Part shown: one piece after another, positions 120 through 57,441 of the stretch
Layout of the letters: each line of letters begins with the position of its first letter
How positions within the stretch are numbered: position 1 is the stretch's first letter
Origin: the human T2T-CHM13v2.0 reference genome, Homo sapiens
Strand: one strand, 5' to 3'
Length of the DNA stretch: 64,000 nt
Assembly (NCBI RefSeq): GCF_009914755.1
Contig: NC_060937.1
The notes under the pieces: generated by a model
Told to the model about the DNA's origin: nothing
The model's database searches: none
What the model saw: the letters and a program-made list of their open reading frames with translations, nothing else
Made by a program: the position numbers and the translations under genes

Positions 120-1740
120 GAATAAAACTTCATGTTAAAATGTCCATACTATCTAAAACAGGGTATAGATTCAATAACATCCCTATGAAAATCCCAATGG
201 CAAGTTTTTACAAAAATTGAAAACAATTATAAAATTCATATGGAACCACAAATGACCCTGAGTAACCATAGCAATCTTGTGAAAGAAGAACAAAGATGAA
301 GGCATAACACTAGCGGGTTTCAAAATACATTACAAAGCTACAATAATTAAAACAGCATAATAGTAGCATAAAGCAGACAGATACACCAATGAAATAGAAT
401 AGAGAGTACACAAATAAATCCATACATATATTGTTATGTACTGTCACATATACTTGAATTTTGACAAGTGGAACAAAAATACAAAATGGGAAACAGATAA
501 TCTCTTCAACACATGGTATTGGAAAAACTGAATAACCTCATGCAAACAATGAAATTGGATCCTTATCTTACACTATACAAAAAACATCAACTCCACATGG
601 ATTAAATTTTGTAATGTAAGACCTGAAACTGTAAAACTCCTAGAAAAAATATAGAAAAAACACTTTATGATATTGGTGTTGGCAATGATTTCTTGAATGT
701 AATAGCAAAAGCACAGGCAACCAAAACAAACATAGACAAGCAGAACTACATTAAAATAAAAAGCTTGTGCACAGCAAAGGAACCAATCAACAGAGTGACA
801 AGGCAACATATGAACTCAGGGAAAATGTATGTTTTTCCAAACCATGTATCTGTTAGATGTTAATATGTAAAATATATGAACTACAATGCAATAATTTAAA
901 AAAAGTAGATTAAGCCATAGGCAAAGGACTTGAATAGACATTTAGCCAAAAAAAAAAAAACCATACAAATAGCCAACAGGTATATGAAAAATATGATAAT
1001 CATCATCACTAATCAGCAGGGCAATGAAAATCAAAACCACAATATTTTCACCTCAAAACCGTTAAGATGGCTATTATTTTTAAAAAATGCATTGATAAGG
1101 ATATAGAGAAGTTGGAACATTTCTGTACTGTTGGTGGGAATATAAAATGGTGCAACTGCTGCAGAAAACATTAAGAAGGTCTCTCAAAAAAATAAAAATA
1201 GAACTACCATGTGATCCAGCATTCCCAGTTTGGGGTATATATAATAATTAAAACCAAGATCTTGAATAAGTATCTCCACTCCCCTGTTCACTGTAGCATT
1301 ATTCACATGAGCCAAGATATAAAAACAACCTAAATCTCCATCAATAGATAAATGGATAAAGAAAATGTGTCTGCATGTGCAATGGAATATTATACAGACT
1401 TACAAAAAAAGAAATCCTGTTATAGGTGACAAAATGGATTAACCTGAAGGACATTATGCTAAGTGAAACAAGCCAGTCACAGAAGGACAAATGCTGCTTG
1501 ACTCCATTTATACGAAATATCTAAAATCATCAAACTCAGAAACAGAGCAGAATAGTGGTTATCAAGGACTGTGGAGAAAGGAAATGAGAGGTTGCTACTT
1601 AATGTGTACCAAGTTTCAATTATGCAAGATAAATAAGACCTAGAGATCTACTGCATAACATCGTGCTTATAGTTAACAATACTATACTATGCATTCGAAA
1701 AGTTGACAGTATGTCTTAACACAATATAGACAAACAAAAT
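120..1740 (+). mobile_element. Old L1 (L1MA/L1MB-type), 3' part of ORF2 plus 3'UTR
   Basis: Degenerate ORF2 C-terminal sequence (aaaatgtccatacta..., atggaaccacaaatgaccctgag, aaattggatccttatcttacac) and an L1M-type 3'UTR (aataagacctagagatctactgcataacat...gttaacaatact). Many stops and indels. Confidence 0.85.
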
Positions 1741-6119: not shown

Positions 6120-8380
6120 GTCTTCTGTTGAAAAGACTTCTTTCTCCAGTGCATTGTCTGGGCAAACTTTTATATATATATATATAATCTATCTTTGTGC
6201 CAATCCTACAATGCCTTGATTAATGTAGTTTTACAGTAAATTTCAAATCAGGAAGTCAGGGTCTTCCAACTTCAATCTTTTTCAAGATGATTTTGGCCAT
6301 TCTTGGTCCCTTACATTCCTTTTGAATTTAAATATCACCTTGTCAATTTTGAAAAAGGAAACTTGGATTTTGACAGAGAATGTACTGAATCTGTAGATTA
6401 TTTTGAAAATTTTACCATTTTAATAATATTAATTTTCTTACACATAACCATCAGGTGGCTTATCTTTTATTTAGTTTCTTTCAACAACAGTTTTTAGTTT
6501 TTAGTGTACATGACTTTGATTCTTTTGTTAAATTTATTCCTAAGTGATTTTAAATTGTAGATGTTATTTTAAATGGAGTTGTTTTCTTAATTTTTGAATT
6601 TTTCATTGAAAGTATATAGAAATACAGCTGCTTTTGGGGTAGTCATCTCATATCTGGCAGTCTTACTGAATTCATTTCTTAGATTTAAGAGGTTTTTATG
6701 CAGATTCATTAGAATTTTCCATGTCCAAGATTATGTCATCTGCTAATAGAGATAGTTGTATTTTTTCTTTTCCAATCTGGATGACTTTTATTTCTTTTCC
6801 TTGCCAAATTGTCCGGGCCAGATCCTTCAGTACAATGTTGCGCAGTCACTGTGAGAATATCCATCTGTCCTGAACTTGGGGGTAAATCATTCAGTCTTCA
6901 CTATTAAGTATAATGTTGGCTTGGGGCTTTTGTAAATAACATTTGTTTGGTTGAGCTAGTTTCCTTCTATAACTAGCTTCCTGGGTCTTTTTTTTTTTTT
7001 TTAACTTTTTTGTTTTAAATAGTGTGTGATTTTGTCAAATGCTTTTTCTGTATCTATCATGTATTTTTTTGTCCTTTATTGTATCGAGATGGTATTTTAC
7101 CCTGACTTATTTTTGAATGTTAAAACAAGCTTGTATTCCCGGGACAAATCCTTGTTCATGGAAAATAATCAGTTCTTTTCTATATATTGCTGGATGTAGT
7201 TTGTTAATATTTTGTTTAGAAATCTTGCATTTATATTCATAAGGTATTTTAGTGTGTAGTTTATTTTCCTATGATGGCTTTGTTTGGTTTTGGTATTAAG
7301 GTAATTTTGGCCTCACAGAATAAGTTGGGAAGTGCTTGTTCTACCTTTTAATTTAATTTTATTTTTGAACAGTTTGTGAAGGATTGATATTACAATTTCA
7401 TAAACATTTGGTAGAACTCACCAATGAAGCCTTCTGGGCTTGGACTACCCTTTGTGAAAATAATTTTATTACAAATACAATTTCTTTAATTGTTATTGGT
7501 TTATTTAGATTTTGTATTTATTCTTGAGTCATTTAAATTAGATTATGTCTTTGAGGAGTTAATTTCATCTAGGTTATATAATTTGTGGACATACACCATT
7601 TTTAGGTACCTGAAAATTCGTTAGTGCTGCTATTCCTCTTCATTCTGATTTTGGTAATTTGAGTCTTTGTTCTTTGTTTTCCTATTTCATCTATCTAAAG
7701 TTTTGTCATTATTTGTTGACCTACTTAAAGAATTACACTTCTTTTATTTCACTGGTTTTCTCTATAACTTTTCTAATCTTTATTTTATTTATTTCTACTC
7801 TAATTTTTATTATCTCCTTCCTTCTGCTTTTTTGACTAGAATTTGCTCTTTTTCTAGTTTCTGAAGATAGTCATATTATTGATTTGGATTTTTAAAAATA
7901 TGGACATTGGCAGTTATACTTTTTCCTCTAAGTACTATTTTATCTTTATCCTCTAAGTTTTGGTATGTTTTGTTTCTATTTTTTTTAATCTCACAATATT
8001 TTCCCATTTTTCTTTAACTTATTCTTCGATTCATTTGTTATTTAGGGAGTTTATTAATTTTCACATATTTGGGATTTTTCCAAATTTCCTTCTGTAATTG
8101 ATTTCAAATTTCATCCCATTTGGGCCAAAGAACATACATTGTATGATCTCAGTCATTTACATTTATTGTGCCTTGTTTTGTAAGCCAATGGATAGTCTAA
8201 GAATGTTCCAGGTATGGTTGTTCCATGGGTGTCTTTTAGTTATAGTTTGTTTTTAAGATTGATCCTTGTAATCTTCTGCTTAGTTGTTCCATCTACAACT
8301 GAGAGTGAAGTACTGAAACCTCCAACTATTGTTGTCAAATTGTTTATTTCTCTATCATTTCTGTGTATTTTTGCTTTATG
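6120..8380 (-). mobile_element. Old L1M ORF2 fragment
   Basis: T-rich antisense ORF2 motifs (gattatgtcatctgctaatagagatag, gtagaactcaccaatgaagcc, gtactgaaacctccaactatt). Confidence 0.8.
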
Positions 8381-24751: not shown

Positions 24752-27700
24752 CTTTCCACCCTAACTAGAACTTCCATTAAAGTCATAGTAGGATTCAAGG
24801 CAGCCAAACTTGACTCACATATGTAAAAAAAACTTGTTAGGATTTAGAAACCCATATTCTCTTCAATAAATTGTTTCTTCAGACTGTTGCCTTATTAAAA
24901 CTTTCTAGTTCTTATTTTGGCATCAAAAAGGAGAATACCAATTTTTAAATAAGTCTCTGCTCACTTTTAATTTCTGCTATCACAATTTTATTGCTTTCCA
25001 TGGCTGAACAACAAGAAGACCAGAACACAATTTTAAGTTAAATTTTATTTAATTTTTACTATTACAATTTTATTGCTTTCTCTGACTGAAAAGAGAAAAC
25101 TCAAACAAAGTAGTCTAGTCTATAAAGTGAAGACTAGAACAAAGAATCATGTCTCAATACATTTCAGAAAGTTACTTCCATTTAACATCAATGGTGTCAT
25201 TTAATATTCTTAACTTTCCTATCAAGTAGATAATATTATTACCTCTATTTTATAGGATATTAAGTCTTATATATTATACATAACCAGCTGAAGGTCATGT
25301 AGCATGTAGATATGATAGGCATACAAAGAAACAATGACATTAGAAGCAGAGGAGGGAGAAGGATTAGAAGGCTAAACCTAGGTCGGTTAAGAGAAAAAGA
25401 AAAACTAGGAGGAGACAAATTCTTGTTAGAAAAAAAAATGATCAAGAAAGAGCAAGACAGTGGCGCAGAACTCTCCAGCTATCGTACCCCTATAGAAACA
25501 TCAATATGAACAACTGCCCACATGTGAAATTACCATTACAAGAGCCAACAGAACCTCAATACATGAACAAAGTTATGAAGCACCTTTAGCCTGTGAAGGT
25601 GGGTAAAACCATGGCTTATGCAGTCAGAGAACCAATACTCTGTGACTGTGATACTCCTCCCTCAGGCCATTATGGTACCATCTGCAGAAACTCCCATAGA
25701 GCTTATAGTTTTTACACTGAAAAAAAGCAGGAGGTTGACATTTGTTTTTTCCACTATACTGAGTGCCTTCACAGTAGCCTCACTCCTGTATCAGCCCACA
25801 GGGGGCACCATGAGTGCCAAAAGGGATGAACCACCTGAGGCATGTTAAGGACATAAGCGGAGGTGGGGCCAGCAACAGCCACCATGTGAAACATAATACA
25901 CAGACTCTACAGGCTTGATGGCCTGACTTGTTCTCCCCCATAGCCAGGGGCTCCCTGTGGATCACCCATGGGCCCATCCAGCAAATGTTGCATCAGTGAT
26001 GGAGCCATTGGAAGACTTACGTCTAATGTGGGATTTGCGCTCTCTCTAACGCTAAAATGGAATACGATGATAAGTCCGCTCAAAATTTCTTAATAAGCCC
26101 ACTTAAAAGTAGTCACAAACACACCCAAACTGAGAAGACTCAAATAAATATCTAAATCATTAATGTGTACACAGATGTATATCTACATATAATAATGATA
26201 GCTTAGGAAAAGTTGCCTCTCCAAATGGACAAAACAAGGTGTCAGCAACTGAACTTAAAGACATACAGATGAACGATCTGGCAGGCAAAGAATTCAAAAT
26301 GGCTGTTTTAAGAAGAGCCTGAACACTGAGAAAGCAGAGACACAATTCAGAAATGTACCAGAGAAATTCAACAAAGAAATCAAAATAATGGGAAAAATCA
26401 CATGTAAATCCTGGAGCAGCAAAGTTCAATGGACACTTTGAAAATCCAATGGAAGGCATCAACAGAAGAACTGATCAAGCAGAAGAAAGAAACAGTGAGC
26501 TCAAAGACAGGCTCTTTGAAAATACATGGTCAGAGTAGAATGAAAAGAAACAAAGAAAGTTTATGAGATTTGTGGGACACCAACAAAAGAGCAAATCTAC
26601 ATATCATTGGTGTTAAAGGGGAACTAAGAATGCAAAAGAGATAGTTTATTCAAAGAAATAACAGAAAACTTTTTAAATCTGGAGAAAGATTAAAATGTTT
26701 AGGATGGTCAAAGTGCCCAATCATATTTAATCTGAATAAGACAACCAAAGACATATTATAATTAAACTCTCAAAGGTCAAAGACAAAGAGAAGACCCTGA
26801 AAGGACTAAGAAAAAGGAAACAACACATAAGAGAATTCCAATATGCCTGGCAGCAGACTTGTCAGCAGAAACACTACAGGCCAGGAGAGAGTAGGATAAT
26901 AGATTCAAGTGCTGAATTAAAAAAACTGTCAACCATGAATAAACTATCCAGCATAGCTATCATTTAGAAATAAAGGAGAGATTGAAACATTCTCAGACAA
27001 ACAAAAAGCAAAGGAATTCACTGTAATCAAACCAGCCTTACAAGAAATGCTAAATATTGTTCTTCGAACTGAAAGGAAATAGCAGCAATATGTAACACAA
27101 AAAATCTGAAGGTATAAACCCACAGATAGAAGTGAGGATTCAGACAAATTTGGAGTGCTCTAATATGGTAATAATTGGATGTAAACCATTTATATATCCT
27201 TAGTAGGAAGGTTAAAATACAATACAAATAATAATAATTACAATAATTTGTTAAGGAATCGCAATATACAAAGATGTAAATTAAGACATCAAAAATGTAA
27301 AATGTGAGGGAGTGAGGGAGTGAGGGAGTTAAAGAGTAGATTGGTTTCTTTTCCCCCTTTTTTGAATCAAAATTAAGTTGCTATCTCTTTAAAATAACTT
27401 ATTGTAACCATAAAATGTTCTTTGCATGCCTTGTGGTAACCACAAAGCAAAAACTTTTAAAAGATACTCTAAAAATTAAAAAAAAAAAGAAACCGAAACA
27501 CACTGATAGAGTAAATCACTTAATCACAAAGGAAGGTAGTGAAATCAATCAATCAATCAAAGTACAAATTAAAAAAAAAACATGAAAACAAGTAATAATA
27601 TGGCAGGACCAAGTCCTTGCCTATCAATAATTATCTTGTATGTAAATGGATTATCCCATTTAAGACATATAATGGCTACACTGATTAAAAACAAGACCTA

Positions 27701-28837
27701 ACTATAAACTTTCTACAGGAAATTCACTTCATCTGTAAATACACACATAAATTGAAAGTGATCAGATGGAAAAATATATTTTATAAATATGGAAACTGAA
27801 AGAAAGCCAATATAGATATATTTATATCAGATAACATACGCTTCAAGCAAAATCCTATAAAAACAGACAAATACAGCCATTATATAATGATAAAGGGATC
27901 AATATCACAAGATAATATAATTGTAAATATATATGCCCTCTATATTGAAGCACCTAAATATATAAAACAAACGTTAATAGATCTAACAGGAGAAACAGCA
28001 AGCAATAAAATAATAGTCAGAAACCTTAACATTCCACTTTCAGCAATAAACAGATTATCAAGACAGAAAATCAACAAAGAAACATCATATTTAAACTGAA
28101 CTCTAGACCAAATAACTTAGCAGTCATTTACAGAACATGTTATCCAACAATTGCATAATTCACAGTCTTCTCTACTGCTCATGGAACATTTTCCATGATA
28201 GATCATATATTAGGCACAAAATGAGCCTTAGCAAATTCAAAAAAAAATCAAAATTATATCACATCTTTTCTGACAATATAGAATAAAACTAGAAATAAAC
28301 AACAAGAACTTCAGAAATTGTGCAAATACATGCAAATTAAACAATGTGTCCCTAAACAATGGGTTAAAAATAAATTTTGTTTCATTTTTAAAATTCTTAA
28401 GACAAACGAAAATGAAATCAGAACATATAAAAACTTAGGAAATACAGCAGAAAAAGTCCTCAGAGGGAAGTCTGTAGAAATGAATTTCTATATGAAAAAA
28501 AGAAAACTCTCATTAATAATTTAAGAATGCATTTCAAGGAATTATAGAAACGTGAACAAACTTAGCCCCAAATTGGTAAAAGAATATAGATAATGAAGAC
28601 CAGAGCACAAATAAACCAAATGGAGACAAAAATATGAAAGATCAATGAAATAAAAAGTTATTTTTTGAAAAGATAAACACAATTGATATATCTTTAGTCA
28701 GATTAAGAAAAAAGAGAGAAGATTCACATAAATAAAATCAGAGATGAAAAAAGACATTAAAATGGTTACTACAGAAATATAAAGAATCATGAGAAAGTAC
28801 TAAAATTATATGCCAATAAATTAGAAAACCTAGAAGA

Positions 28838-38374: not shown

Positions 38375-39900
<1,526 letters not shown>

Positions 39901-41424
39901 GTACCATCTAACATATTATTATATCCAGTTGTGTCAAATCTGTCATCGGCCATAGAACCCTTTGACAGGTGCTTCTTGTTACTTCAATTCTAAGTATTTC
40001 ATAGTCTTCAAAGACATGGAGAAGTAGCAGTGCTAGTAACAGTACTAGTAAAACCAGGTTAAGCCCTAAAATAATTAAGAAGCCATTGCATGCACACACA
40101 TGAATGTTTGACTTCAGCTAAAATGCTTTCAAATGTACTATTCTATCTTTATACAAGGCCATAACACAAATTAAAATTTTAAAAATACTTTCACTTTACG
40201 TATGTGAAAACTGCAGCTCAAAGAATTTAAAAGACATGACTGAAATCCCATAACCAGGTAAAGATGGTCTAATCTGGAGCCCGCATGTCTCGGTCCCCCC
40301 ACGCCCTGTTACAGAGAGTGCGAGGCTTCACCAGGAAGCTCTTTCGGCTCAAGGATTAGCTCTGGGGAAGTGCAGCAGGCAGGCCTGCTTTGCAACCTTT
40401 TTTCCAGCAGAAATCCAATGTTTGTTCACATTTCTAGTTCTTTTTGTTTTGTTTTGTTTCTTATCAGTATGGCTCTGGGAGTTATTTACAAAATTTAATT
40501 TTAAAAGTGACAGTCCGCATCATTAGGGTTCCTTGGAAACTTATGAAAAAAATAAATAAATACTGGTAGATAAGAAATTTCTGCAAAATTGTTAGTTATA
40601 TGTGTAATATATCTAATCGTAACTAAAGAAACATGTGTATTACAGTAATAATTTAATTTATTATTGTCATTTTCTTGCCAGATATGAGGGCATTTTTTTA
40701 AGCTCTCCACATGTGGTTTACTGTGGACCAAACACTGGCAGCTTCAGGCTTACAATGTGCTGACAAATCCTTCTTAGTTCGTTCACTTTGAAGAATGTGA
40801 GCATGCACTGTTCATGTGCCTGGCAAGCATGTAACCTGCTCAGGAGAAGGACAGTGTCCACTCAGGTCATCAGGTGAACTTGTGATGAGGCCATCAAGAG
40901 GCTGCACGTGTGCTCCAGAAAATGAAATTCCCACTATCAACCTATTTTCCATTTCCACCCAATGGCCCGCCCCTGCTCCAAAGCCATGTCTCCACCTCTT
41001 AGGAATGCTTGATTTTCAGCATTGCTGAACAGGGGTCAAAGAAAACAAACTGAACAAACAAACAAATGAAGCCTTTAACCCGGGAGCAAAGACACAGCAC
41101 CTCCCCACTCCACAACAGCTCCAGAGCTGCACAGCTGCTGCCAGAGCCTGAGCACAGGCCTGAGCTCTGGCCCATGGATCTCACCAATGCATTTCTTTTC
41201 CGTGCCAAAAAAAGTATCCATAAATGGGATTCATTTACTTGGGACATAAAATAATGTATACCTATAGTTTTCTCCCAGAACTGTGTAAACCGGCATGCTG
41301 TCTGCCACAATACAGTCCTCACCCTGCATCAGGAGCTCAGATGGGGGAAGCCAGCAGGGCTGCAGGCCTGAGAGTCACAGGTGCTTGGAGGGGAGAGAAA
41401 AGCACCACAGAGAGCCAGGCCCTG

Positions 41425-44400
41425 CCTACAAGTCACATTTTTAGGGGTCTAGTGGTCTGGGCAGGCTGGGAGATGCTCTCTAAAGGAAAGGCAAGAAATA
41501 TTGCCCAACGTCTCCCACCACAAACAGAAAGTGCAGGTGGTCAGCCCCAGGGCTCACCTGCCCTTTGCCAGGGTCACGAGTCAGGCCCAGGCTGCACCCT
41601 CCACACAATCCTCAAGGAGAGTTCCTGCCAGGCTGGGACAACTGCACCGGGACCTGATGCCCTGGGAAGGACAGGGTTGCATTTAACAGAAACAGTTAAA
41701 CCTGAAAGGATGAGCTTGCTTTTCCCCGGGGCCATCGGATGGTTTATAGAAAGTTCTGCCCATCAGGACAAGACCTCACATGACACCATCAGAGGAACTG
41801 ATTTCACACCACAGAGGGAGGAAGAGGGCACATGCAGTAGGTCCACTGGTCACAGCACACACATGCTCCTGGGAGCTTCAGACCCAGCAGTGTGGCTCAG
41901 GTGCCAGGTCAGGATGTGGGAGGACACAGTGTCTGCAGGAATCTGTCACCTTTGCTAGCTGTCTTGTCCCACTAGGTAGAAGATGTGGCAATGAGAGCAC
42001 AGCTGTAGGAAGCCCAGTGTCCCCCAACCTTCCACATCACACCCAGGACCTCTGAGGTGCATCTATATCTGCATATCTAGGTTCTGAAAAGCAGGAGGTC
42101 CTGGTTTCCACAGCTGTGGGGCTTCTAGCCAGGGCAGGGCCAGGTTCTCTGAAAAAACAAGCTCTGGGTGCTGCTTTGTCCTCAGGCTGCTCCTCCATGG
42201 GACCTGCGGGCAGAAAAATGGGTACCACCTGGACCATGGTGTCAGCAGGAGCAGAGCTGTGCTGCCTGGGGAAGGAGGGGCTCCACACAAGTACCTCCCA
42301 GTACACAGCATTTGATGGCATGTGGACAAGTGCAGGAGCCCTAGACCAAGGACTCTGAGGTGAGCAAGGCTGAGGGCCCCTTAGGGGTGAGGGCCTGGGT
42401 TACACCACCAGGGGGTCACCAGGACCCTCAGCAGAAGGTGGAGGGGGTGGTGATCATTACCTGTGTGACCCTGAGGTGGGTGGCAGCCACAGAACCTAGG
42501 GTTCATTGAAACCCCTTTTGTAACTAGTGCCCAGAAAAAGGCCTAGAATTTAATAAAGACAAGGCCCGTGGCAGTGCAGTGCTGGATGGGGCGCACCCCC
42601 TGGGGCACACCTGAACCTCCCCCAGGGCCTTGGCTGTGAGCTTTGATTGTAGACACACTTATGCCACAGCCCCTTCAGACTGCTCCCTTCACCTCTGAAA
42701 AATCAGACAGGATGCTTCTGTTCCTGGAAACATGAATGCCCTTCGTGTGTTTTTTACTTTGACTAGAAACACATCTGCAACCGAAATATATGCAGAGACC
42801 TCGTGTGCTCCCAAGGTTTCCAGGCATCTCTGAGTTTGCTTCTCAGTTCCCAGAAGGTGTGACAGCTCCAAAGCATGTGCTTCTGGTTTCTCATCTCAGT
42901 GTATTTTAGTTCCCTGTGGACAGCATGTTTCTAACCCCCTTGCACACTCTTGGATCAGATTTTTGAAAAAGCCAAGGGTGGGAGGCAGAATGATGTGGAA
43001 TGGGCAAAAACCATGAGTAAAGGCTGGCCTCACCCCAGGAGGAGACAGAAGGCATTAGCCCAGTGACAGTGCCAGGGAACCCATGCGGCAGCCTAGGGAA
43101 GGTCAGGGAATGGAGCTGGGGCTTCGGCTGTCGCCATCCCAGAGTTAGACTCAGCCAGGTGAACAGCTGATTCTCCTCCACAGAACCCTTCGGCTGGCAC
43201 AAAACATGCGATTCACAGCGAGAGAAAGACCACTCATGTCCACCCCCTGCAGCCTCCACACACCTGAGCCCGTACCTGACATATCCCAGAACAAGACTCC
43301 ACAGCTATGCATCTGTTCTCTCCAGGGCATTTCATGATGAGAGAGGGATTTACTTAACATGATGAAAATAGAAGAGGAAATGACCTTGACAAGTACATAG
43401 TTCCACACCCGCCATCCAGGGCCTAGGAATAGTGCTCAGCCAGGGCCCGGCCCTTCTAGGGCTCTTGGAAGCTGCAGTGGAGGTGGTGTTGGGACAAGCA
43501 AGAGTGACCATTTGCAGGCAGTGTGGGCACCAGGCCATCTGCAGGGGAAAAGCCCAGTGGGAGGATGAGAGGATAGCAGAAACCTGGCAGGGGCTATGCA
43601 CCCCCCACCGTGGGAAGGGGATACACTCCCAGGTGGAGCCACTGTTTACATTGAAATCACTCAAGTCCATCACCAGGAAACACAAAGGGGATTGTCTTGC
43701 CAGAGATTAGTGATCTGGGACTTAAACAAAATGCCAGTCAGCAAATGAGAGGATTCTTAGTTCCACAGGCCTCATGTCTATAGTTGCAGTAAGCAAGACT
43801 GAACTCAGCCATGCTCACCTGCAGACACTGAGATGCTTGCTAGGAGGCTGTGGGGTGGAATACAAGACACGAGGGCTGACAAGGATGGGAAGAGCATCCC
43901 TTTCCTGGCTAGGGGCCTTGGCCAATTCAAAAATAGATAACATGGGGTCTCAGAGCTCCTGAGGCAAGAGCTACGTAGGCATTCAGAGATACCTGGATGA
44001 TGGCATTGTCTTCAGTAGAACCTTGAAAAAGCACCAGGGACTCCCAGGCAACTTAGCTTAAATCTCTCTCGAGTAGAGCTGGTCTTTGGGATCTCCATCA
44101 AGTGGATGATGCCTTTACCACCATGATAGCACATTATAAAGTTGGCCTTGCAAGCAGCAGGGACAGGCCTGATGTCACTGATCCTGAGGCAAGCATCTTA
44201 TAAACCCATATAATTTAATTTTGCGTAGGCTCAAGCTCATCACTGAGATCATCCTTTGTATGACGATCCATGAGGCCACCGTGAACAGCATGGATGGACC
44301 CAGGCCATGGAGGGGCCCTCTTCATCCTGGATGAGGAGCCCACAGTGTCCATTGCCCCTCAGTCAGAATAAAATCAAGACAAAAGCAATCAGAAGACCCA

Positions 44401-45240
44401 TACACCATGAGGCTGAGCCATTTTTCAAAGATGTCAAAATAGGAAAATAATAAAATGGAAGAAAACCCAGAATCCCATCCTCTGACTTGCTCCAGAGGCC
44501 TCCCCAACTCCAGGCCACCAGGAGCAGGGGCCCTGCAAAGGAACTCTCCCTGGGTAGAAATTCGCTGGTTTTTGCCTTCCACCAGATGTTGGCAACTTCA
44601 ATTTCATCTTTTTTGGCATTAGAGCTAACGTTAAAATGACTCAGGTCAAAAAAGAGTGATGTGCTGCAGCCCTGACAATGCTCCCAGTGAGAATTTGTGC
44701 AAAACTCTTCCCTGGATCTACAAAACTAGGGCCAGGCAGGGTGTTGGGGCTGTGACGACTGCATCTCTGCCTCCTCCTCTCTGCAGTGCGGCCTCTTCAC
44801 AGGCAGAGCATTCATTCTTCTTTAGCTTCTCACCAGCCCAGGATGCAGGGAAGAAGTAGCTTATCAGCACAGTCTTGGAATATTTTTACTTTACCAGCTG
44901 GGCTCCTATGAACAATGTGTCCAGCTATAGGTAAACAATGTGTGCAAATAATGTGAGAGTGACCGCACCATGTCAGGACCATGCAAGAAGCTGGCCAGAG
45001 GCACAAGCAGCAGATGGGATGCTGATGGGGGTGACCAAAATACAGTATGGGGCAGCTGCATGCCACGATCAATCTGCAGGGGTAGGGGAAAAATAACTCT
45101 GGGCCTGGCTAACATTTGCGTGGGGGAACATTGACCCAAGTCCCCAGGAGAACGTTGAAGAGAACCGCGGCTTATTGTCAAAGGGAAAAGTAACCGCAGA
45201 GTTTTCTTTCTGCTTCTAAGCAGATGGGAGGGGCGTAGCC
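41425..45240 (+). mobile_element. Highly decayed Ty3/Gypsy LTR-retrotransposon internal region (PNMA-like gag, CCHC, PR, RT, IN remnants)
   Basis: RT motif YLDDGIVFSRTLKKH at 43990-44034, preceded by IPFLA at 43896 and WDLNK at 43716 at roughly Gypsy spacing. Upstream are capsid-like HIFRG, QGSPAL and HMLLGASDPAVWLRCQVR, then TCGQKNGYH at 42202 and AVLDG at 42576. GHQ lies downstream at 44513. Confidence 0.6.
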
Positions 45241-45563
45241 TGCAGAACCAAGGGTGTGGGGGTCCTAGAATGTTGGTGGTGGTTGTTCAGCAAAGGGCTT
45301 CGCTTCTCGGCCTGCAGAACTTTCCGCCTATGAGTGTGGGTTACATCTATACATACACAGGAAATCATATACTCCCACTCAGCCACCCACATCTAAACAT
45401 GGTAGTATTAGGAAAAATAGGAAAGCAACATCCTACTAGATTACATTGCTTGCAGTGAAACCATTTAAACCCCTGAGCCTCTGTGTCACCAATTAACACT
45501 GTGTGTAAGGAGAATGCCTGCCCCGTGGGGGTTTGTAAAGACAAAATGTAAAAATAAAATGTA

Positions 45564-45679
45564 GGCTGGGCGCGGTGGCTCACGCCTGTAATCCCAGCAC
45601 TTTGGGAGGCCGAGGGCACGGATCACGAGGTCAGGAGATTGAGACCATCCTGGCTAACATGGTGAAACCCTGTCTCTAC

Positions 45680-45714
<35 letters not shown>

Positions 45715-45720
45715 CAAATA
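45564..45720 (+). mobile_element. AluY-type left monomer ending in (TAAA)n
   Basis: gatcacgaggtcaggagattgagaccatcctggctaac...ctctact(aaat)n. Right arm absent. Confidence 0.85.
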
Positions 45721-48090
45721 ATAAAATTAAATGTAGAGTGCTTGGTAAACTAAAGTTCTAAATAAATATTAGTTGTTACTATTATTATGTCAGAAGTACT
45801 AGTCACAAGACTGGAATACTTCACTTGAATAAGAACTCAGTGCAAAGAGGTTGGATAAATTGGTGAGTTTGAAACTGCAACAGGACTAAAAATATGCCAA
45901 TTAATTTATTAATGTATTCATATTTATTAACTTATTTATATTCAAATGAATTAAATATTTAGTGCATGCTTGGACCTGGGAGCACACAGCCATCAGTGCC
46001 ACATGAACTCTGTCCTCACTGCAGTTGTTTTCAGATGACCTCAGAGGAAAATAAGAGGGAAACCACTGGCAATTTCCTTCCGTTGATACCTTAGCTGACT
46101 ACATAGCTCATGTTAGGTCGGTCTTAATGAGGAAATCAGAATATTCGGGGCTTCAGTATTAAAACTACAAATCTCTATAGCAAGCATTCAGAGCTCTTTG
46201 GATTAGACATCAGTGGCTGCAGTAATGTTACCTGAGAAACCCACACACTTTCTGAACACTGGCATGAGTATCCTTTCCTTTCGGGCCACTATATATGGAA
46301 AAACACTTTCACCCATCACCCTAAGTGTCCCAAACTGCAGAAGAGGCAGATAGTAGCCAGCTAGTCCCTGTCAAAGGCCCATTGCCCTTTTCTGGGTCAG
46401 CCTGGTCCACCCAGCCTGAGGTGCTCTCTGAGACAGCCTAGCCACCACGCCACATGCCCTTCAGCCTAATCAGAGCATCAGGATGCTGTGCACGGCCATT
46501 AGCTGGGGTGACTCAGAATTATCTGCTGTAGAACACTGCTCCGAGTGAAGGATGTGGTCACTCAGACCACGTAGATGGTTCAAGCTCTTACTCCTCTGTC
46601 AGCTCAGTGCCTTCACAGTGGAAAGGAAGTGCATCTATTGATTTCTTGGCCAAAAGAACAAGTTAATACATTTTTAAAAACTTTGACATTTTGTCTTAAA
46701 GCAACAGTGGGCCTTGTTTAACTAAAATCTCATTTCTCCAGCCTAATTTTGCTGGAAAGGCCCCAAACCAAGGCAAGCCCCTGGGGGAGAGAGAGCAGCT
46801 AGGATGCTGACACCAGATGGCTTTGTTCCCCAGCCTTCAATATACTCAGTTACAAAATAACCACATCAGAGGTTTGATAAGATTATCCCCCAGGCCATTT
46901 TTCAGGTCTAAATGTTACCGTATTTTATACAAGAATACAGTATTTGAATCAATTCTCAGGGGACGCAGCCTTCAGGAGACACTGAAGGAATACAGACATT
47001 TTTTCTAGCCTCAAAAGCATGGTTTGCAAACTGGCTTGTTCTTTGTCGGAGAAAACCACACACGTGGCCATTGACGCCCTTGGTTGGCAGAGTTGACGGG
47101 ATTTTCTCTGGCTCTCACCTTGAGGGCATCATCAGCATCCTGAAGTCACTAGCAGGCCTCTGTGCAGATGTCCTTTCGAGGGGCTTCAGGCTGTGGAAGT
47201 GACCAGTGAACACAGGACCTGCCTGGACTCCCAGCCTCACAGCACAGCACCACAGCCTGGACTGCCATCTGCCTGATATTTGGTTTGGAACTTTACTCCA
47301 TCAAAGCCTCCAAATAAAAATATGTAGACTCCCCACCCTATCCCATCTGCTATAGGGTTCTAATTCCCCCACAGACATCCCATCACAGTGCTTTCCCCCA
47401 TGACGGGGGACCCCTGCGCTGGACTCCATCCCTCCCCTATCAGAAAAGCACAGGTGCTGTGGCATGAGTTCAACTGCCTGAAATTCCCTGATCTTCACAG
47501 TAATAATTCTAAAATAGGGCAACAATACCCCTGTCAGTGTTCTTGGGAGAACCTCTCATTATTTGAGGCCCCAGAAATGCAAACACCCTCCTGTTTTCCA
47601 GTGTGCTGTCAACCCTGGCATCAGAGCTGTTTCTGCCATGGATACTGGTAATTGACTTACTGGAGAAAGTCAAGCTTTTAAGTCCCAGGAATGAAGGGTT
47701 CCTATTTCCTTAAGCTGTGTTTATTTTTACACTATTGCTGGTAGAGTCAATGTGTACCGAGTGAAGATGAGGCAAAAGTGTCAAAGAGTGATTTCCAATA
47801 AAATGAAAAGTGATCTGCAGTTTCCACTTCCTTAACCAGCAGGAAACGTCTCTCCTGTAGCATCGGACAGTGGAGACAGTGGAGCTCAGTGTGGGGCCTC
47901 CTGGCTGAAGGAGCGGACAACACGGTGTCCCATCTCCCGAGATGCTCTATGCACCTCACCTGGCTGGTGATTTACTTGACAGAAACCCATGTGTGGAGTA
48001 GGGAGTGCTGCCTTTGGCATCTACCCATGTCCTGCTCTGGACTCTGCCTCTTAGCAAGGGTGACTTGTGGGCCCAACTCACCTGGTGGCT

Positions 48091-50228: not shown

Positions 50229-57441
<7,213 letters not shown>

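What the first reader, a model, noticed from the sequence alone, without database searches (positions are those of the whole stretch)
41425..45240. Fossil Ty3/Gypsy retrotransposon with PNMA-like gag and pol motifs in the correct order
Seen: a stretch that looks like unique DNA carries, on the + strand and across frameshifts, the following in order. Capsid-like pieces HIFRG..AGWE (41434), QGSPAL..VTSQAQAAP..GEFL (~41545-41630), KPERMS (~41700) and HMLLGASDPAVWLRCQVR..VTFAS (~41860-41960). A decayed zinc knuckle TCGQKNGYHLDH (42202). A protease-like AVLDG (42576). RT remnants WDLNK (43716), IPFLA..QF (43896) and YLDDGIVFSRTLKKH followed by LK.SLE (43990-44075). An integrase-like GHQ (44513). 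Known: PNMA capsids contain RVFSG..PGEE, ESLRGPAL, GEKVS and QVMAGA..LWCRLR; Gypsy RT has DYRxLN, MPFG and YLDDIxxFSxTxxEH; PNMA/MOAP1 genes are domesticated Gypsy gag genes that lost pol. Inference: this is a rare gag+pol relic of the lineage related to PNMA progenitors. It may already be covered by mammalian Gypsy repeat models such as MamGyp-int or MamGypsy2-I.
Basis: partly seen in the sequence, partly recalled or inferred. Interest (0 to 1): 0.8.

Follow-up and report, generated by a model that had tools for sequence, protein, structure and literature searches.

The report
Lone Gypsy-type RT motif, no gag-pol fossil
Of the claimed gag-to-integrase retrotransposon fossil, only one 16-residue reverse-transcriptase active-site motif stands above chance, probably a tiny dead remnant of an ancient Ty3/Gypsy element inside old duplicated DNA, which is ordinary for a human genome.

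Summary
Only one beats chance: YLDDGIVFSRTLKKHQ (43990-44037).

That block scores 63 half-bits against a profile I built from 79 natural Gypsy-type pol proteins. It is 11/15 identical to one of them. About 0.08 such matches are expected by chance per human genome, and 0 of 197 shuffled windows reached 63.

Nothing else holds:
- The "PNMA-like gag" is no better than shuffles, while the same method scores real decayed PNMA relics at 121-414.
- Zinc knuckle, protease, RNase H and integrase have no support.
- WDLNK and IPFLA..QF score no better than shuffled flanks.
- Upstream RT-like patches are marginal (p about 0.01-0.3). Downstream there is nothing.
- No LTR-like repeats flank the interval.

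The interval lies in a pericentromeric segmental duplication, with an older paralog of about 80% identity on chr2p25.3 that keeps the motif as YLDDVIVFSRTLKKYQ.

Verdict: probably (about 0.6) a short, dead Ty3/Gypsy-type RT remnant. It is not a gag+pol relic of the PNMA lineage. Low interest.

The parts
43990..44037 (+). RT catalytic (YxDD) box of Ty3/Gypsy type, frame 1: YLDDGIVFSRTLKKHQ
   Evidence: It aligns ungapped to profile positions 358-373 of my 79-protein Gypsy pol profile at 63 half-bits. Chance expectation is 0.076 per genome. It is 11/15 identical to YLDDILIFSRTLKEH of natural protein P0041. It is the best six-frame hit of the profile in the whole window. Pfam RVT_1 places it at the YxDD position, profile 149-168, but with only 12.1 bits against a cut-off of 29.6.
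43786..43890 (+). Weak RT-like patches in the same frame and at the right spacing upstream: AVSKTELSHAHL (43786) and GVEYKTRGLTRMG (43852). Marginal evidence only.
   Evidence: Block 291 lands 3 nt from its expected place; 40/2000 shuffles reach its score. Banded anchored extension reaches profile position 293 at 43788, with 9/1000 shuffles as good at W=15 under lenient penalties only, and 39/1000 and 18/1000 at wider bands. Pairwise alignments to natural proteins are shown. With standard penalties the extension score is 0. The sum over five objective upstream blocks is reached by 273/2000 shuffles. The patches are not significant in the chr2 copy.
41224..41958 (+). It is a chance ORF.
   Evidence: It matches no Pfam family. 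It is open only in the chr13 and chr18 copies. The other seven copies compared have frameshifts and 1-2 stops, and synonymous:nonsynonymous differences of 18:80 in the chr2 copy and 5:13 to 10:38 in the other six.
41000..45500 (+). Compositional block around the finding: GC 46-58% with mostly A>T on the + strand, between AT-rich flanks.
   Evidence: This is a lead only. It is compatible with an old retroelement sense strand but does not show one.
39000..48000 (.). Duplicated segment that contains the finding
   Evidence: Copies of the interval lie on chr18 (97-99%), chr21 (97%) and chr15 x2 (92-95%). Partial copies lie on chr2q21, chr14 x2 and chr22 (89-92%). An older paralog on chr2:559,897-598,231 is 77-85% identical on both sides of the interval and across it.
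45563..45722 (+). Truncated Alu with an (AAAT)n tail, absent from the chr2p25.3 paralog
   Evidence: The chr2 alignment skips query 263-422 of 45301-48000, while many Alu loci match that stretch at about 90%. The sequence is shown and the Alu-to-Alu direct repeats.

Best explanation
The interval is non-functional, neutrally decaying DNA inside an old segmental duplication. It contains one short remnant of the reverse-transcriptase catalytic site of an ancient Ty3/Gypsy-type LTR retrotransposon. The remnant is about 50 bp for certain and perhaps about 250 bp (43786-44037).

Inferred history: an element inserted long ago and its coding sequence decayed beyond recognition except for the YxDD box. 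The locus was then duplicated between chr2p25.3 and a pericentromeric site and spread among chr13, 18, 21 and 15.

Shown here: the motif, its rarity by chance, its Gypsy rather than L1 or ERV character, its presence in the 80% paralog, and the duplication.

Inferred: that the motif descends from a real element, and the order of events.

There is no gag, protease, RNase H, integrase or LTR that can be recognised, and no link to PNMA.
For: Strength of the block:
- It scores 63 of a possible 93 half-bits.
- The exact chance rate is 1.2e-11 per position, or 0.076 per genome.
- An empirical check agrees. The sub-pattern DD-x-h-h-[FY]-S(AGY)-x5-H occurs 8 times genome-wide, 5 of them copies of this locus, against 9 for the reversed control. 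By my own arithmetic, adding Y-L upstream brings the chance count to about 0.04-0.13.
- 0/197 shuffled windows reach 63 at any profile offset; a Gumbel fit gives about 8e-5 per window.

Gypsy character:
- It is 11/15 identical to natural protein P0041, and 48 of the 150 natural proteins hold a 15-mer with 8 or more identities.
- All 12 sampled natural Gypsy RTs place their best frameshift-aware alignment at this block. Seven of the 12 are reached by at most 5/200 shuffles, and P0069 scores 79 against 40.3+-5.5.
- An L1 ORF2 RT piece and six ERV RT pieces give nothing; 17-166 of 200 shuffles reach their real scores.

Other support:
- The chr2p25.3 paralog keeps the box as YLDDVIVFSRTLKKYQ, block score 58.
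- There are upstream same-frame patches at the right spacing.
- Another lone genomic site with a similar box, chrX:127,827,058 (block score 56), extends into clear RT sequence. So real relics of this kind exist, and my anchored tests are only marginal on it too: 21/500 upstream and 77/500 downstream.
Against: - Flank support is weak and depends on the method. Anchored extension is 0 under standard penalties.
- Taking the maximum over 79 natural proteins upstream, 53/400 shuffles reach the real score with strict penalties and 3/400 with lenient ones.
- For the eight proteins closest in the block, the figures are 58/1000 and 306/1000.
- The sum over five objective upstream blocks is reached by 273/2000 shuffles.
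- Downstream the real score is never above the shuffles.
- The chr2 copy shows no upstream signal; 154-195 of 1000 shuffles reach it.
- Independent libraries see little. Pfam RVT_1 gives 12.1 bits on the 32-aa piece only. There are 0 Pfam families on read-through frames, 0 PDB hits at E<=10, 0 of 73 candidates at E<=10 in the 5.8-billion-protein search, and no atlas hit for the 78-aa upstream ORF.
- By gapped, frameshift-tolerant local score the region ties for 6th-7th of 28 window chunks. The higher ones are long alignments of A-rich sequence, at least one of them L1 ORF2-like (52063-53366; my reading of its translation), to the C-terminal part of the profile.
- A block kept this well next to flanks decayed this far is a tail event under uniform decay.
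Confidence: 0.62

Rival explanations
1. Pure chance. The 16-residue match arose by accident in neutrally evolving unique DNA and was copied with the duplication. Nothing here descends from a retroelement.
For: No statistically firm extension exists on either side. No other Gypsy part and no LTR was found. The curated libraries are silent. The looser 9-residue pattern occurs 91 times genome-wide against 28 for the control. Most hits fall in a few repeated sequence types, and all three sampled copies of one type were not RT-like. Seven of the nine lone hits I fetched also look like chance, with block scores 11-37. With very many windows scanned, a 0.08-per-genome event is not impossible.
Against: The expected chance count is 0.076 per genome for this block at this score, and the empirical pattern count agrees. 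The match covers the conserved residues and also the variable positions of particular natural Gypsy RTs: FSRTLKKH against FSRTLKEH. Marginal upstream patches lie in the same frame at the right spacing.
Confidence: 0.27
2. The whole of 41425-45240 is one decayed gag-pol Ty3/Gypsy element of the lineage that gave rise to the PNMA genes (MamGyp-int-like), with parts in canonical order.
For: The RT box sits about 2.5 kb after the proposed gag start, a plausible distance. A GC-richer, mostly A>T block spans 41.0-45.5 kb. PNMA2's coding exon is described as the gag part of MamGyp-int (passages of bioRxiv 10.1101/2023.02.09.527862). Gypsy fossils are listed for the human genome (passages of PMC5753468).
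Against: - The PNMA profile, 11 PNMA-family ORFs, tblastn, Pfam PNMA and a genome-wide PF14893 search give nothing at 41.2-42.5 kb, although decayed PNMA relics elsewhere score 121-414 by the same method.
- The one PNMA-family ORF that beat its shuffles (111 against 73.8+-11.4, 0/100) aligns at residue 632 of 647, outside the first 345 residues used for the profile.
- No protease, RNase H or integrase signal was found.
- The 'zinc knuckle' has a single Cys. The canonical CCHC spacing is recalled, not taken from a call.
- No LTR-like direct repeats were found.
- The 244-aa ORF is a chance ORF.
Confidence: 0.06
3. The box is a drifted remnant of another RT-bearing repeat class (LINE or endogenous retrovirus), not of a Gypsy element.
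For: RT-derived sequence of L1 and ERVs is very abundant in this genome: 56,749 first-look candidates for RVT_1, of which 150 were scored. L1 ORF2-like pieces lie elsewhere in the window (named from my reading of the translations).
Against: Neither the L1 ORF2 RT piece nor the six ERV RT pieces align to 43300-44700 better than shuffles. Their best 15-mers against the block have 2-6 identities and are not YxDD-box sequence. The residues after the DD (..FS.T...H) match the Gypsy set. Only one L1 copy and ERV pieces from six loci were tested.
Confidence: 0.05

Closest known systems
Ancient mammalian LTR/Gypsy fossils in Repbase/Dfam (MamGyp-int with MamGypLTR1-3, X1_LR to X4_LR; names from PMC5753468)
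   Same: It is a Ty3/Gypsy-type RT active-site box in heavily decayed, non-coding human DNA. Such traces are known to exist at low abundance.
   Different: Membership in any named family could not be tested, because no Dfam or Repbase library is available here. There is no PNMA-like gag next to it, whereas MamGyp-int gag is the stated source of PNMA2. There are no LTRs. No other genomic locus resembles it apart from its own duplicates.
PNMA / MOAP1 family (Pfam PF14893), domesticated Gypsy gag genes
   Same: Nothing demonstrable.
   Different: There is no profile, pairwise or Pfam similarity in 41.2-42.5 kb.
RTL1 (sushi-ichi-type domesticated Gypsy gag-pol; chr14 ORF of 1358 aa used here as seed)
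   Same: Both descend from Gypsy-type pol. RTL1 served to retrieve 150 natural relatives.
   Different: RTL1 keeps recognisable gag, protease, RT and RNase H domains. Its box reads YGQEVLIYSMSQEEH, only 3/15 identical to the window block. tblastn with RTL1 finds nothing at 43.9-44.1 kb among the best 60 of its 600 HSPs.
Lone RT relic at chrX:127,827,058 (L055)
   Same: It is a single-copy site with a Gypsy-like box (YLDDLLIYSLTEEKQR, block score 56).
   Different: L055 extends over profile positions 352-421 with a local score of 84 and recognisable downstream RT motifs. The window's box does not extend. The two share no DNA or tblastx similarity.

Membership tests
Ty3/Gypsy (Metaviridae-type) LTR retrotransposon | RT with YxDD catalytic box of Gypsy type (Y-L-D-D-h-h-h-[FY]-S ... 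H) | tested here: met
   63 half-bits at profile positions 358-373. 11/15 identical to natural P0041. Chance expectation 0.076 per genome.
Ty3/Gypsy (Metaviridae-type) LTR retrotransposon | Remaining RT domains collinear around the box | tested here: inconclusive
   Upstream the shuffle-based p runs from 0.009 to 0.3 depending on the test. Downstream there is nothing (same calls). The upstream signal is absent in the chr2 copy.
Ty3/Gypsy (Metaviridae-type) LTR retrotransposon | Aspartic protease upstream of RT | tested here: not met
   Profile positions 1-357 on 42300-43989 give a best score of 39, reached by 36/300 shuffles, at a place not collinear with the box. No Pfam protease family was found.
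Ty3/Gypsy (Metaviridae-type) LTR retrotransposon | RNase H and integrase (HHCC + DDE) downstream of RT | tested here: not met
   Profile positions 374-1122 on 44038-45500 score 32, against a shuffle mean of 39.0; 297/300 shuffles reach the real score. No collinear hit was found in 37-51 kb.
Ty3/Gypsy (Metaviridae-type) LTR retrotransposon | Flanking long terminal repeats | tested here: not met
   Only Alu-to-Alu direct repeats were found in 38.5-48.5 kb. Repeats less than about 65% alike would be missed.
Ty3/Gypsy (Metaviridae-type) LTR retrotransposon | gag with capsid and CCHC zinc knuckle | tested here: not met
   No Retrotrans_gag, Ty3_capsid, PNMA or zf-CCHC Pfam hit. The RTL1 gag part is no better than shuffles, 60/100. 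TCGQKNGYHLDH holds one Cys.
PNMA family (PF14893) | Match to the PNMA capsid domain profile | tested here: not met
   Positive controls score 121-414.
MamGyp-int / MamGypsy2-I / X*_LR (Dfam, Repbase) | nhmmer or RepeatMasker match to the family model | not testable with these tools
   No repeat library is on hand. Only the family names were seen in print.

The most novel reading that the evidence does not exclude
The GC-richer, A>T-skewed block at 41.0-45.5 kb is the last trace of a very old Ty3/Gypsy lineage distinct from MamGyp-int. It would have no PNMA-like gag and no relatives left in the genome other than its own duplicates. It would survive only at chr2p25.3 and in the pericentromeric duplicon, and would not be covered by current repeat models.
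Probability: 0.1. Interest if true: 0.3.

Novelty: new member of a known kind. Interest (0 to 1): 0.12.

Why it matters
It matters little biologically. Low-abundance Gypsy fossils are already documented in the human genome, and this one has no sign of function or constraint. Between the chr13 and chr2 copies the motif differs at 5 of 48 nt (read off the alignment), and the surrounding ORF evolves neutrally.

Its use is mainly methodological. A string of short look-alike motifs in "correct order" across three frames did not survive shuffled controls. A single high-information block did. If the remnant is real and unannotated, it adds one data point on how far an RT box can outlast its flanks.

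Tried and rejected
Searches of the finding itself that gave little or nothing:
- Pfam on 47 + strand ORF pieces gave 4 weak families, none over its cut-off.
- Pfam on six read-through frames and on three RT-region read-throughs gave 0 families.
- PDB phmmer on frame 1 of 43390-44334 gave 0 hits at E<=10.
- The search for homologous proteins, longer proteins only, with the 111-aa read-through: 73 candidates, none at E<=10. The 'near' and 'shorter' length ranges were not searched.
- The protein-atlas search on the 78-aa upstream ORF gave no usable hit.
- The 32-aa piece searched as a protein over the own genome found only the 6 copies.

Attempts at a positive control or calibration:
- I looked for pol downstream of four PNMA-like relics. 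Top scores were 43-60 with no collinear hits, so that positive control failed.
- The repeat family reading YLDDH[VM]IFS is AT-rich and not RT-like in the 3 copies fetched of the 6 sites I count in the listing.
- Gapped, frameshift-tolerant local score is a poor discriminator. A-rich stretches, at least one of them L1 ORF2-like by my reading, reach 65-77 against the C-terminal part of my profile.

Other points:
- chr2-only DNA next to the break at about 43026 showed no pol signal and no match to the window. Only its two 1.5-kb ends were available.
- A coding role for the 244-aa ORF is rejected.
- The homemade profile and penalties are my own. I report both strict and lenient settings because the results differ between them.
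Full report
**1. What is in the sequence**

The window is CHM13 chr13:17,794,001-17,858,000. The strings come from all three + frames. Frame 1 holds HIFRG (41434), TCGQKNGYHLDH (42202) and YLDDGIVFSRTLKKH (43990). Frame 3 holds AVLDG (42576), WDLNK (43716) and IPFLA (43896). Frame 2 holds GHQ (44513). Three of the "capsid" pieces are three frames of one stretch of about 80 nt. Most of the capsid strings sit in a 244-aa stop-to-stop frame (41224-41958).

**2. Curated libraries**

- Pfam on 47 + strand ORF pieces returned four weak families, none over its cut-off. One was RVT_1: 12.1 bits against a cut-off of 29.6, E 0.16, with residues 7-26 of the piece 43963-44058 aligned to profile positions 149-168, which is the YxDD place.
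- Reading stops as X, none of the six frames of 41002-45503 matched any Pfam family. Nor did three read-throughs of the RT region.
- PDB phmmer gave 0 hits at E<=10.
- The 5.8-billion-protein search, restricted to longer proteins, gave 0 of 73 candidates at E<=10.
- The protein atlas gave no usable hit for the 78-aa ORF upstream of the box.

**3. The gag/PNMA claim**

- PF14893 run over the whole assembly found 17 places among 40 candidates scored. None lies at this locus or its duplicates.
- tblastn with ORFs from the 11 PNMA-family loci and with RTL1 gave only chance-level HSPs. The best inside the claimed gag has E 1.1, and the best in the whole window (E 0.013) lies elsewhere.
- I wrote a frameshift-aware Smith-Waterman (BLOSUM62; gap 11/1; frameshift 8) and ran it on 41200-42500. 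It was no better than 100 dinucleotide shuffles for 11 of 12 queries.
- The exception, L034 (111 against 73.8+-11.4), aligns at residue 632 of 647, far outside the capsid part.
- A profile of the first 345 residues of 10 distinct PNMA-family ORFs scored 32, against 35.4+-4.8 for shuffles; 403/500 shuffles reached the real score.
- The same profile and method scored 414, 159, 121 and 158 on four decayed PNMA-like relics that contain stops. The method therefore has power, and the PNMA-like gag is not there.
- The 244-aa ORF is open only in the chr13 and chr18 copies. The other seven copies compared carry frameshifts and 1-2 stops, with synonymous:nonsynonymous differences such as 18:80. It is a chance ORF in GC-rich DNA.

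**4. Comparators for pol**

- PF17919 over the genome pointed to a 1358-aa ORF on chr14 with gag, protease, RT and RNase H domains. I name it RTL1 from recall.
- Its RT-RNase H part retrieved 50,837 proteins at E<=0.001. The best 150 were kept.
- 129 of the 150 carry Y[LIVMFA]DD, and the commonest box is YLDDILIFS.
- I built a 1122-position profile from 79 of them. Landmarks are DSG at 40, DYR at 261, LDL at 295, PFG at 329 and the DD of the box at 360.
- The profile recognises ERV pol ORF pieces from human loci at 10-125 bits: 22 pieces at E<1e-3.

**5. The RT box**

- The best frameshift-aware local alignment of the profile to 41000-45500 is 16 residues, ungapped: YLDDGIVFSRTLKKHQ at 43990-44037 on profile positions 358-373. 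It scores 63 half-bits. 0/100 shuffles reach it (maximum 60), and the reverse strand scores 43.
- It is also the best hmmsearch domain in all six frames of the whole window.
- The exact iid probability of at least 63 at this block is 1.2e-11 per codon position. That gives 1.6e-6 per window and 0.076 per genome. The maximum attainable score is 93.
- I scanned all 1107 16-position offsets of the profile against both strands of the window. The next independent hit scores 43.
- In 197 shuffled windows the maximum averaged 42.1+-3.0 and never exceeded 54. A Gumbel fit gives about 8e-5 per window.
- Genome-wide pattern counts agree with these figures. The loose 9-residue pattern occurs 91 times against 28 for the reversed control. 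Most of the 91 fall in a few repeated sequence types, and all three sampled copies of one type (of the 6 sites I count in the listing) were not RT-like.
- The pattern DD-x-h-h-[FY]-S(AGY)-x5-H occurs 8 times, 5 of them this locus's copies, against 9 for the control.
- The block is 11/15 identical to YLDDILIFSRTLKEH of natural protein P0041. It is unlike the best 15-mers of L1 ORF2 or ERV pieces (2-6 identities, none of them box sequence) and unlike RTL1's degenerate box (3/15).

**6. Does the similarity extend?**

Unanchored flanks:
- Upstream (43300-43989 against profile positions 150-357) the score is 39, reached by 6/300 shuffles, but the hit is not collinear with the box.
- Downstream (44038-45500 against positions 374-1122) the score is 32, and 297/300 shuffles reach it.

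Anchored extension from the box:
- With standard penalties it is 0 in both directions.
- With lenient penalties (8/1, frameshift 5) the upstream extension is reached by 23/500 shuffles unbanded. Banded, the figures are 9/1000, 39/1000 and 18/1000.
- Downstream it is never above the shuffles.

Pairwise alignments to natural proteins:
- All 12 sampled natural Gypsy RTs put their best alignment at the box. Alignments to five natural proteins (four of them from that sample) show same-frame patches AVSKTELSHAHL (43786) and GVEYKTRGLTRMG (43852), plus frame-3 IPF..QF and VSELLRQEL.
- Taking the maximum over all 79 proteins as the statistic, upstream extension is reached by 53/400 shuffles (strict) or 3/400 (lenient). 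The mean of the top ten is reached by 17/400 and 16/400. Downstream the figures are 109-241 of 400.
- For the eight proteins closest in the block, upstream gives 58/1000 for the maximum and 44/1000 for the mean under strict penalties, and 306/1000 and 86/1000 under lenient ones. Downstream there is nothing.

An objective test used the five most informative 12-position blocks on each side, searched within +-36 nt of their expected places:
- Only block 291 (AVSKTELSHAHL) stands out, reached by 40/2000 shuffles.
- The upstream sum is reached by 273/2000 and the downstream sum by 1696/2000.

By gapped local score the region only ties for 6th-7th of 28 chunk-strands of the window. The higher ones are 216-488-residue, multi-frameshift alignments of A-rich sequence to the C-terminal part of the profile. 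I read at least one of them (52063-53366) as L1 ORF2-like from its translation. That statistic is therefore uninformative here.

**7. Other RT classes**

One L1 ORF2 RT region and six ERV RT ORF pieces align to 43300-44700 no better than shuffles; 17-166 of 200 shuffles reach the real scores.

**8. Context**

- The 3.9 kb has full-length copies on chr18 (98%), chr21 (97%) and chr15 x2 (95%). Partial copies (first 1391 nt) lie on chr2q21, chr14 x2 and chr22 (91-92%). A paralog on chr2:585,728-595,237 is 77-81% identical.
- The chr2 homology continues at 80-85% on both sides, covering window 39000-48000. It is interrupted by chr2-only segments of about 5.5 kb and about 23 kb, and it lacks the truncated Alu at 45563-45722.
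- The two loci are therefore related by an old segmental duplication, not by transposition.
- The chr2 copy reads YLDDVIVFSRTLKKYQ, block score 58. By my reading of the alignment, it differs from the chr13 block at 5 of 48 nt, three of them synonymous, in a region about 83% identical overall. This is no evidence of constraint.
- Upstream extension in the chr2 copy is not significant; 154-195 of 1000 shuffles reach it.
- No LTR-like direct repeats were found in 38.5-48.5 kb.
- GC is 46-58%, with mostly A>T on the + strand, from 41.0 to 45.5 kb, between AT-rich flanks. This is a lead only.
- No other genomic place resembles the 32-aa piece.

**9. Calibration on other lone sites**

I fetched nine single-copy sites that carry the loose pattern. 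Seven look like chance, with block scores 11-37 and no convincing extension. chrX:127,827,058 (box YLDDLLIYSLTEEKQR, block score 56) extends over profile positions 352-421 with a local score of 84 and reads like RT downstream. Even so, my strict anchored tests on it give only 21/500 upstream and 77/500 downstream. chr1:204,975,438 extends upstream (0/500). So real lone RT relics exist at about this score level, where chance predicts about 1 per genome at >=56 and 0.08 at >=63. It also shows that my flank tests have limited power.

**10. Reading**

The block is too specific to dismiss. The flanks are too poor to prove descent. I weigh three things: a chance rate of about 0.08 per genome, the existence of at least one comparable true relic, and marginal upstream support with none downstream. 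On that basis I put about 0.6 on a real, very short Ty3/Gypsy-type RT remnant and about 0.27 on chance.

The PNMA link and the ordered gag-PR-RT-IN anatomy are not supported. In print, PNMA2's coding exon is described as the gag part of MamGyp-int (passages of bioRxiv 10.1101/2023.02.09.527862). Human Gypsy fossils (MamGyp-int, MamGypLTR1-3, X1-4_LR and others) are listed in PMC5753468 (passages). One literature search was made. Whether Dfam already annotates this piece could not be checked.

Noticed in passing
window 39000-48000 (and beyond); loci L002-L012: The region is a mosaic pericentromeric duplicon. Copies lie on chr18, chr21 and chr15 (x2), with partial copies on chr2q21, chr14 (x2) and chr22 that end near window 42790. 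A much older paralog at chr2p25.3 (77-85%) is interrupted by chr2-only segments of about 5.5 kb (at about window 43026) and about 23 kb (at about 39900).
   Followed up: partly
window 45563-45722: A truncated Alu with an (AAAT)n tail is present in the chr13/18/21/15 copies but absent from the chr2p25.3 paralog. It gives a relative date for the duplication.
   Followed up: partly
window 41224-41958 (+): A 244-aa open frame is intact only in the chr13 and chr18 copies. It carries neutral-looking substitutions, frameshifts and stops in the other seven copies.
   Followed up: yes
L055 (G000:C23:127826700-127827450), + strand about 341-525: A lone, better preserved RT relic (box YLDDLLIYSLTEEKQR) extends through the downstream RT motifs. 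It is unrelated at DNA level to the window's piece.
   Followed up: partly
L057 (G000:C1:204975100-204975850), - strand: A site with box YLDDLLLFS has a significant upstream extension to the pol profile (21 against 4.2+-4.1, 0/500). It is probably another RT relic of unknown class.
   Followed up: no
L038-L042 (chrX:107.84 Mb, chrX:52.98 Mb, chr7:117.10 Mb, chr17:52.31 Mb): These are decayed PNMA-like gag relics with stops and frameshifts (PF14893 31-42 bits; my PNMA profile 121-414). No recognisable pol lies in the sequence fetched downstream of them.
   Followed up: partly
genome-wide: Three multi-copy sequence types read Y-[LF]-D-D in frame: roughly four dozen sites with variants of TACCTGGATGATGAAATAATCTATAC, about 16 with TATTTTGATGACCTTCTACTTTATAG, and 6 with TAYTTAGATGAYCAT.... 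These tallies are my own count of the listing. All three sampled copies of the last type are AT-rich and not RT-like. The identity of these repeats was not established.
   Followed up: partly
window 52063-53366 (+); also 294-1045 (+), 26058-26999 (+), 27011-28474 (+), 55918-56788 (+), 6942-7586 (-), 38863-39507 (-): A-rich stretches whose K/N/I/T-rich translations give spuriously high gapped scores (61-77) against my Gypsy profile, all but one (38863-39507, profile positions 116-321) against its C-terminal half. 52063-53366 reads like L1 ORF2 in translation. The others were not identified.
   Followed up: no
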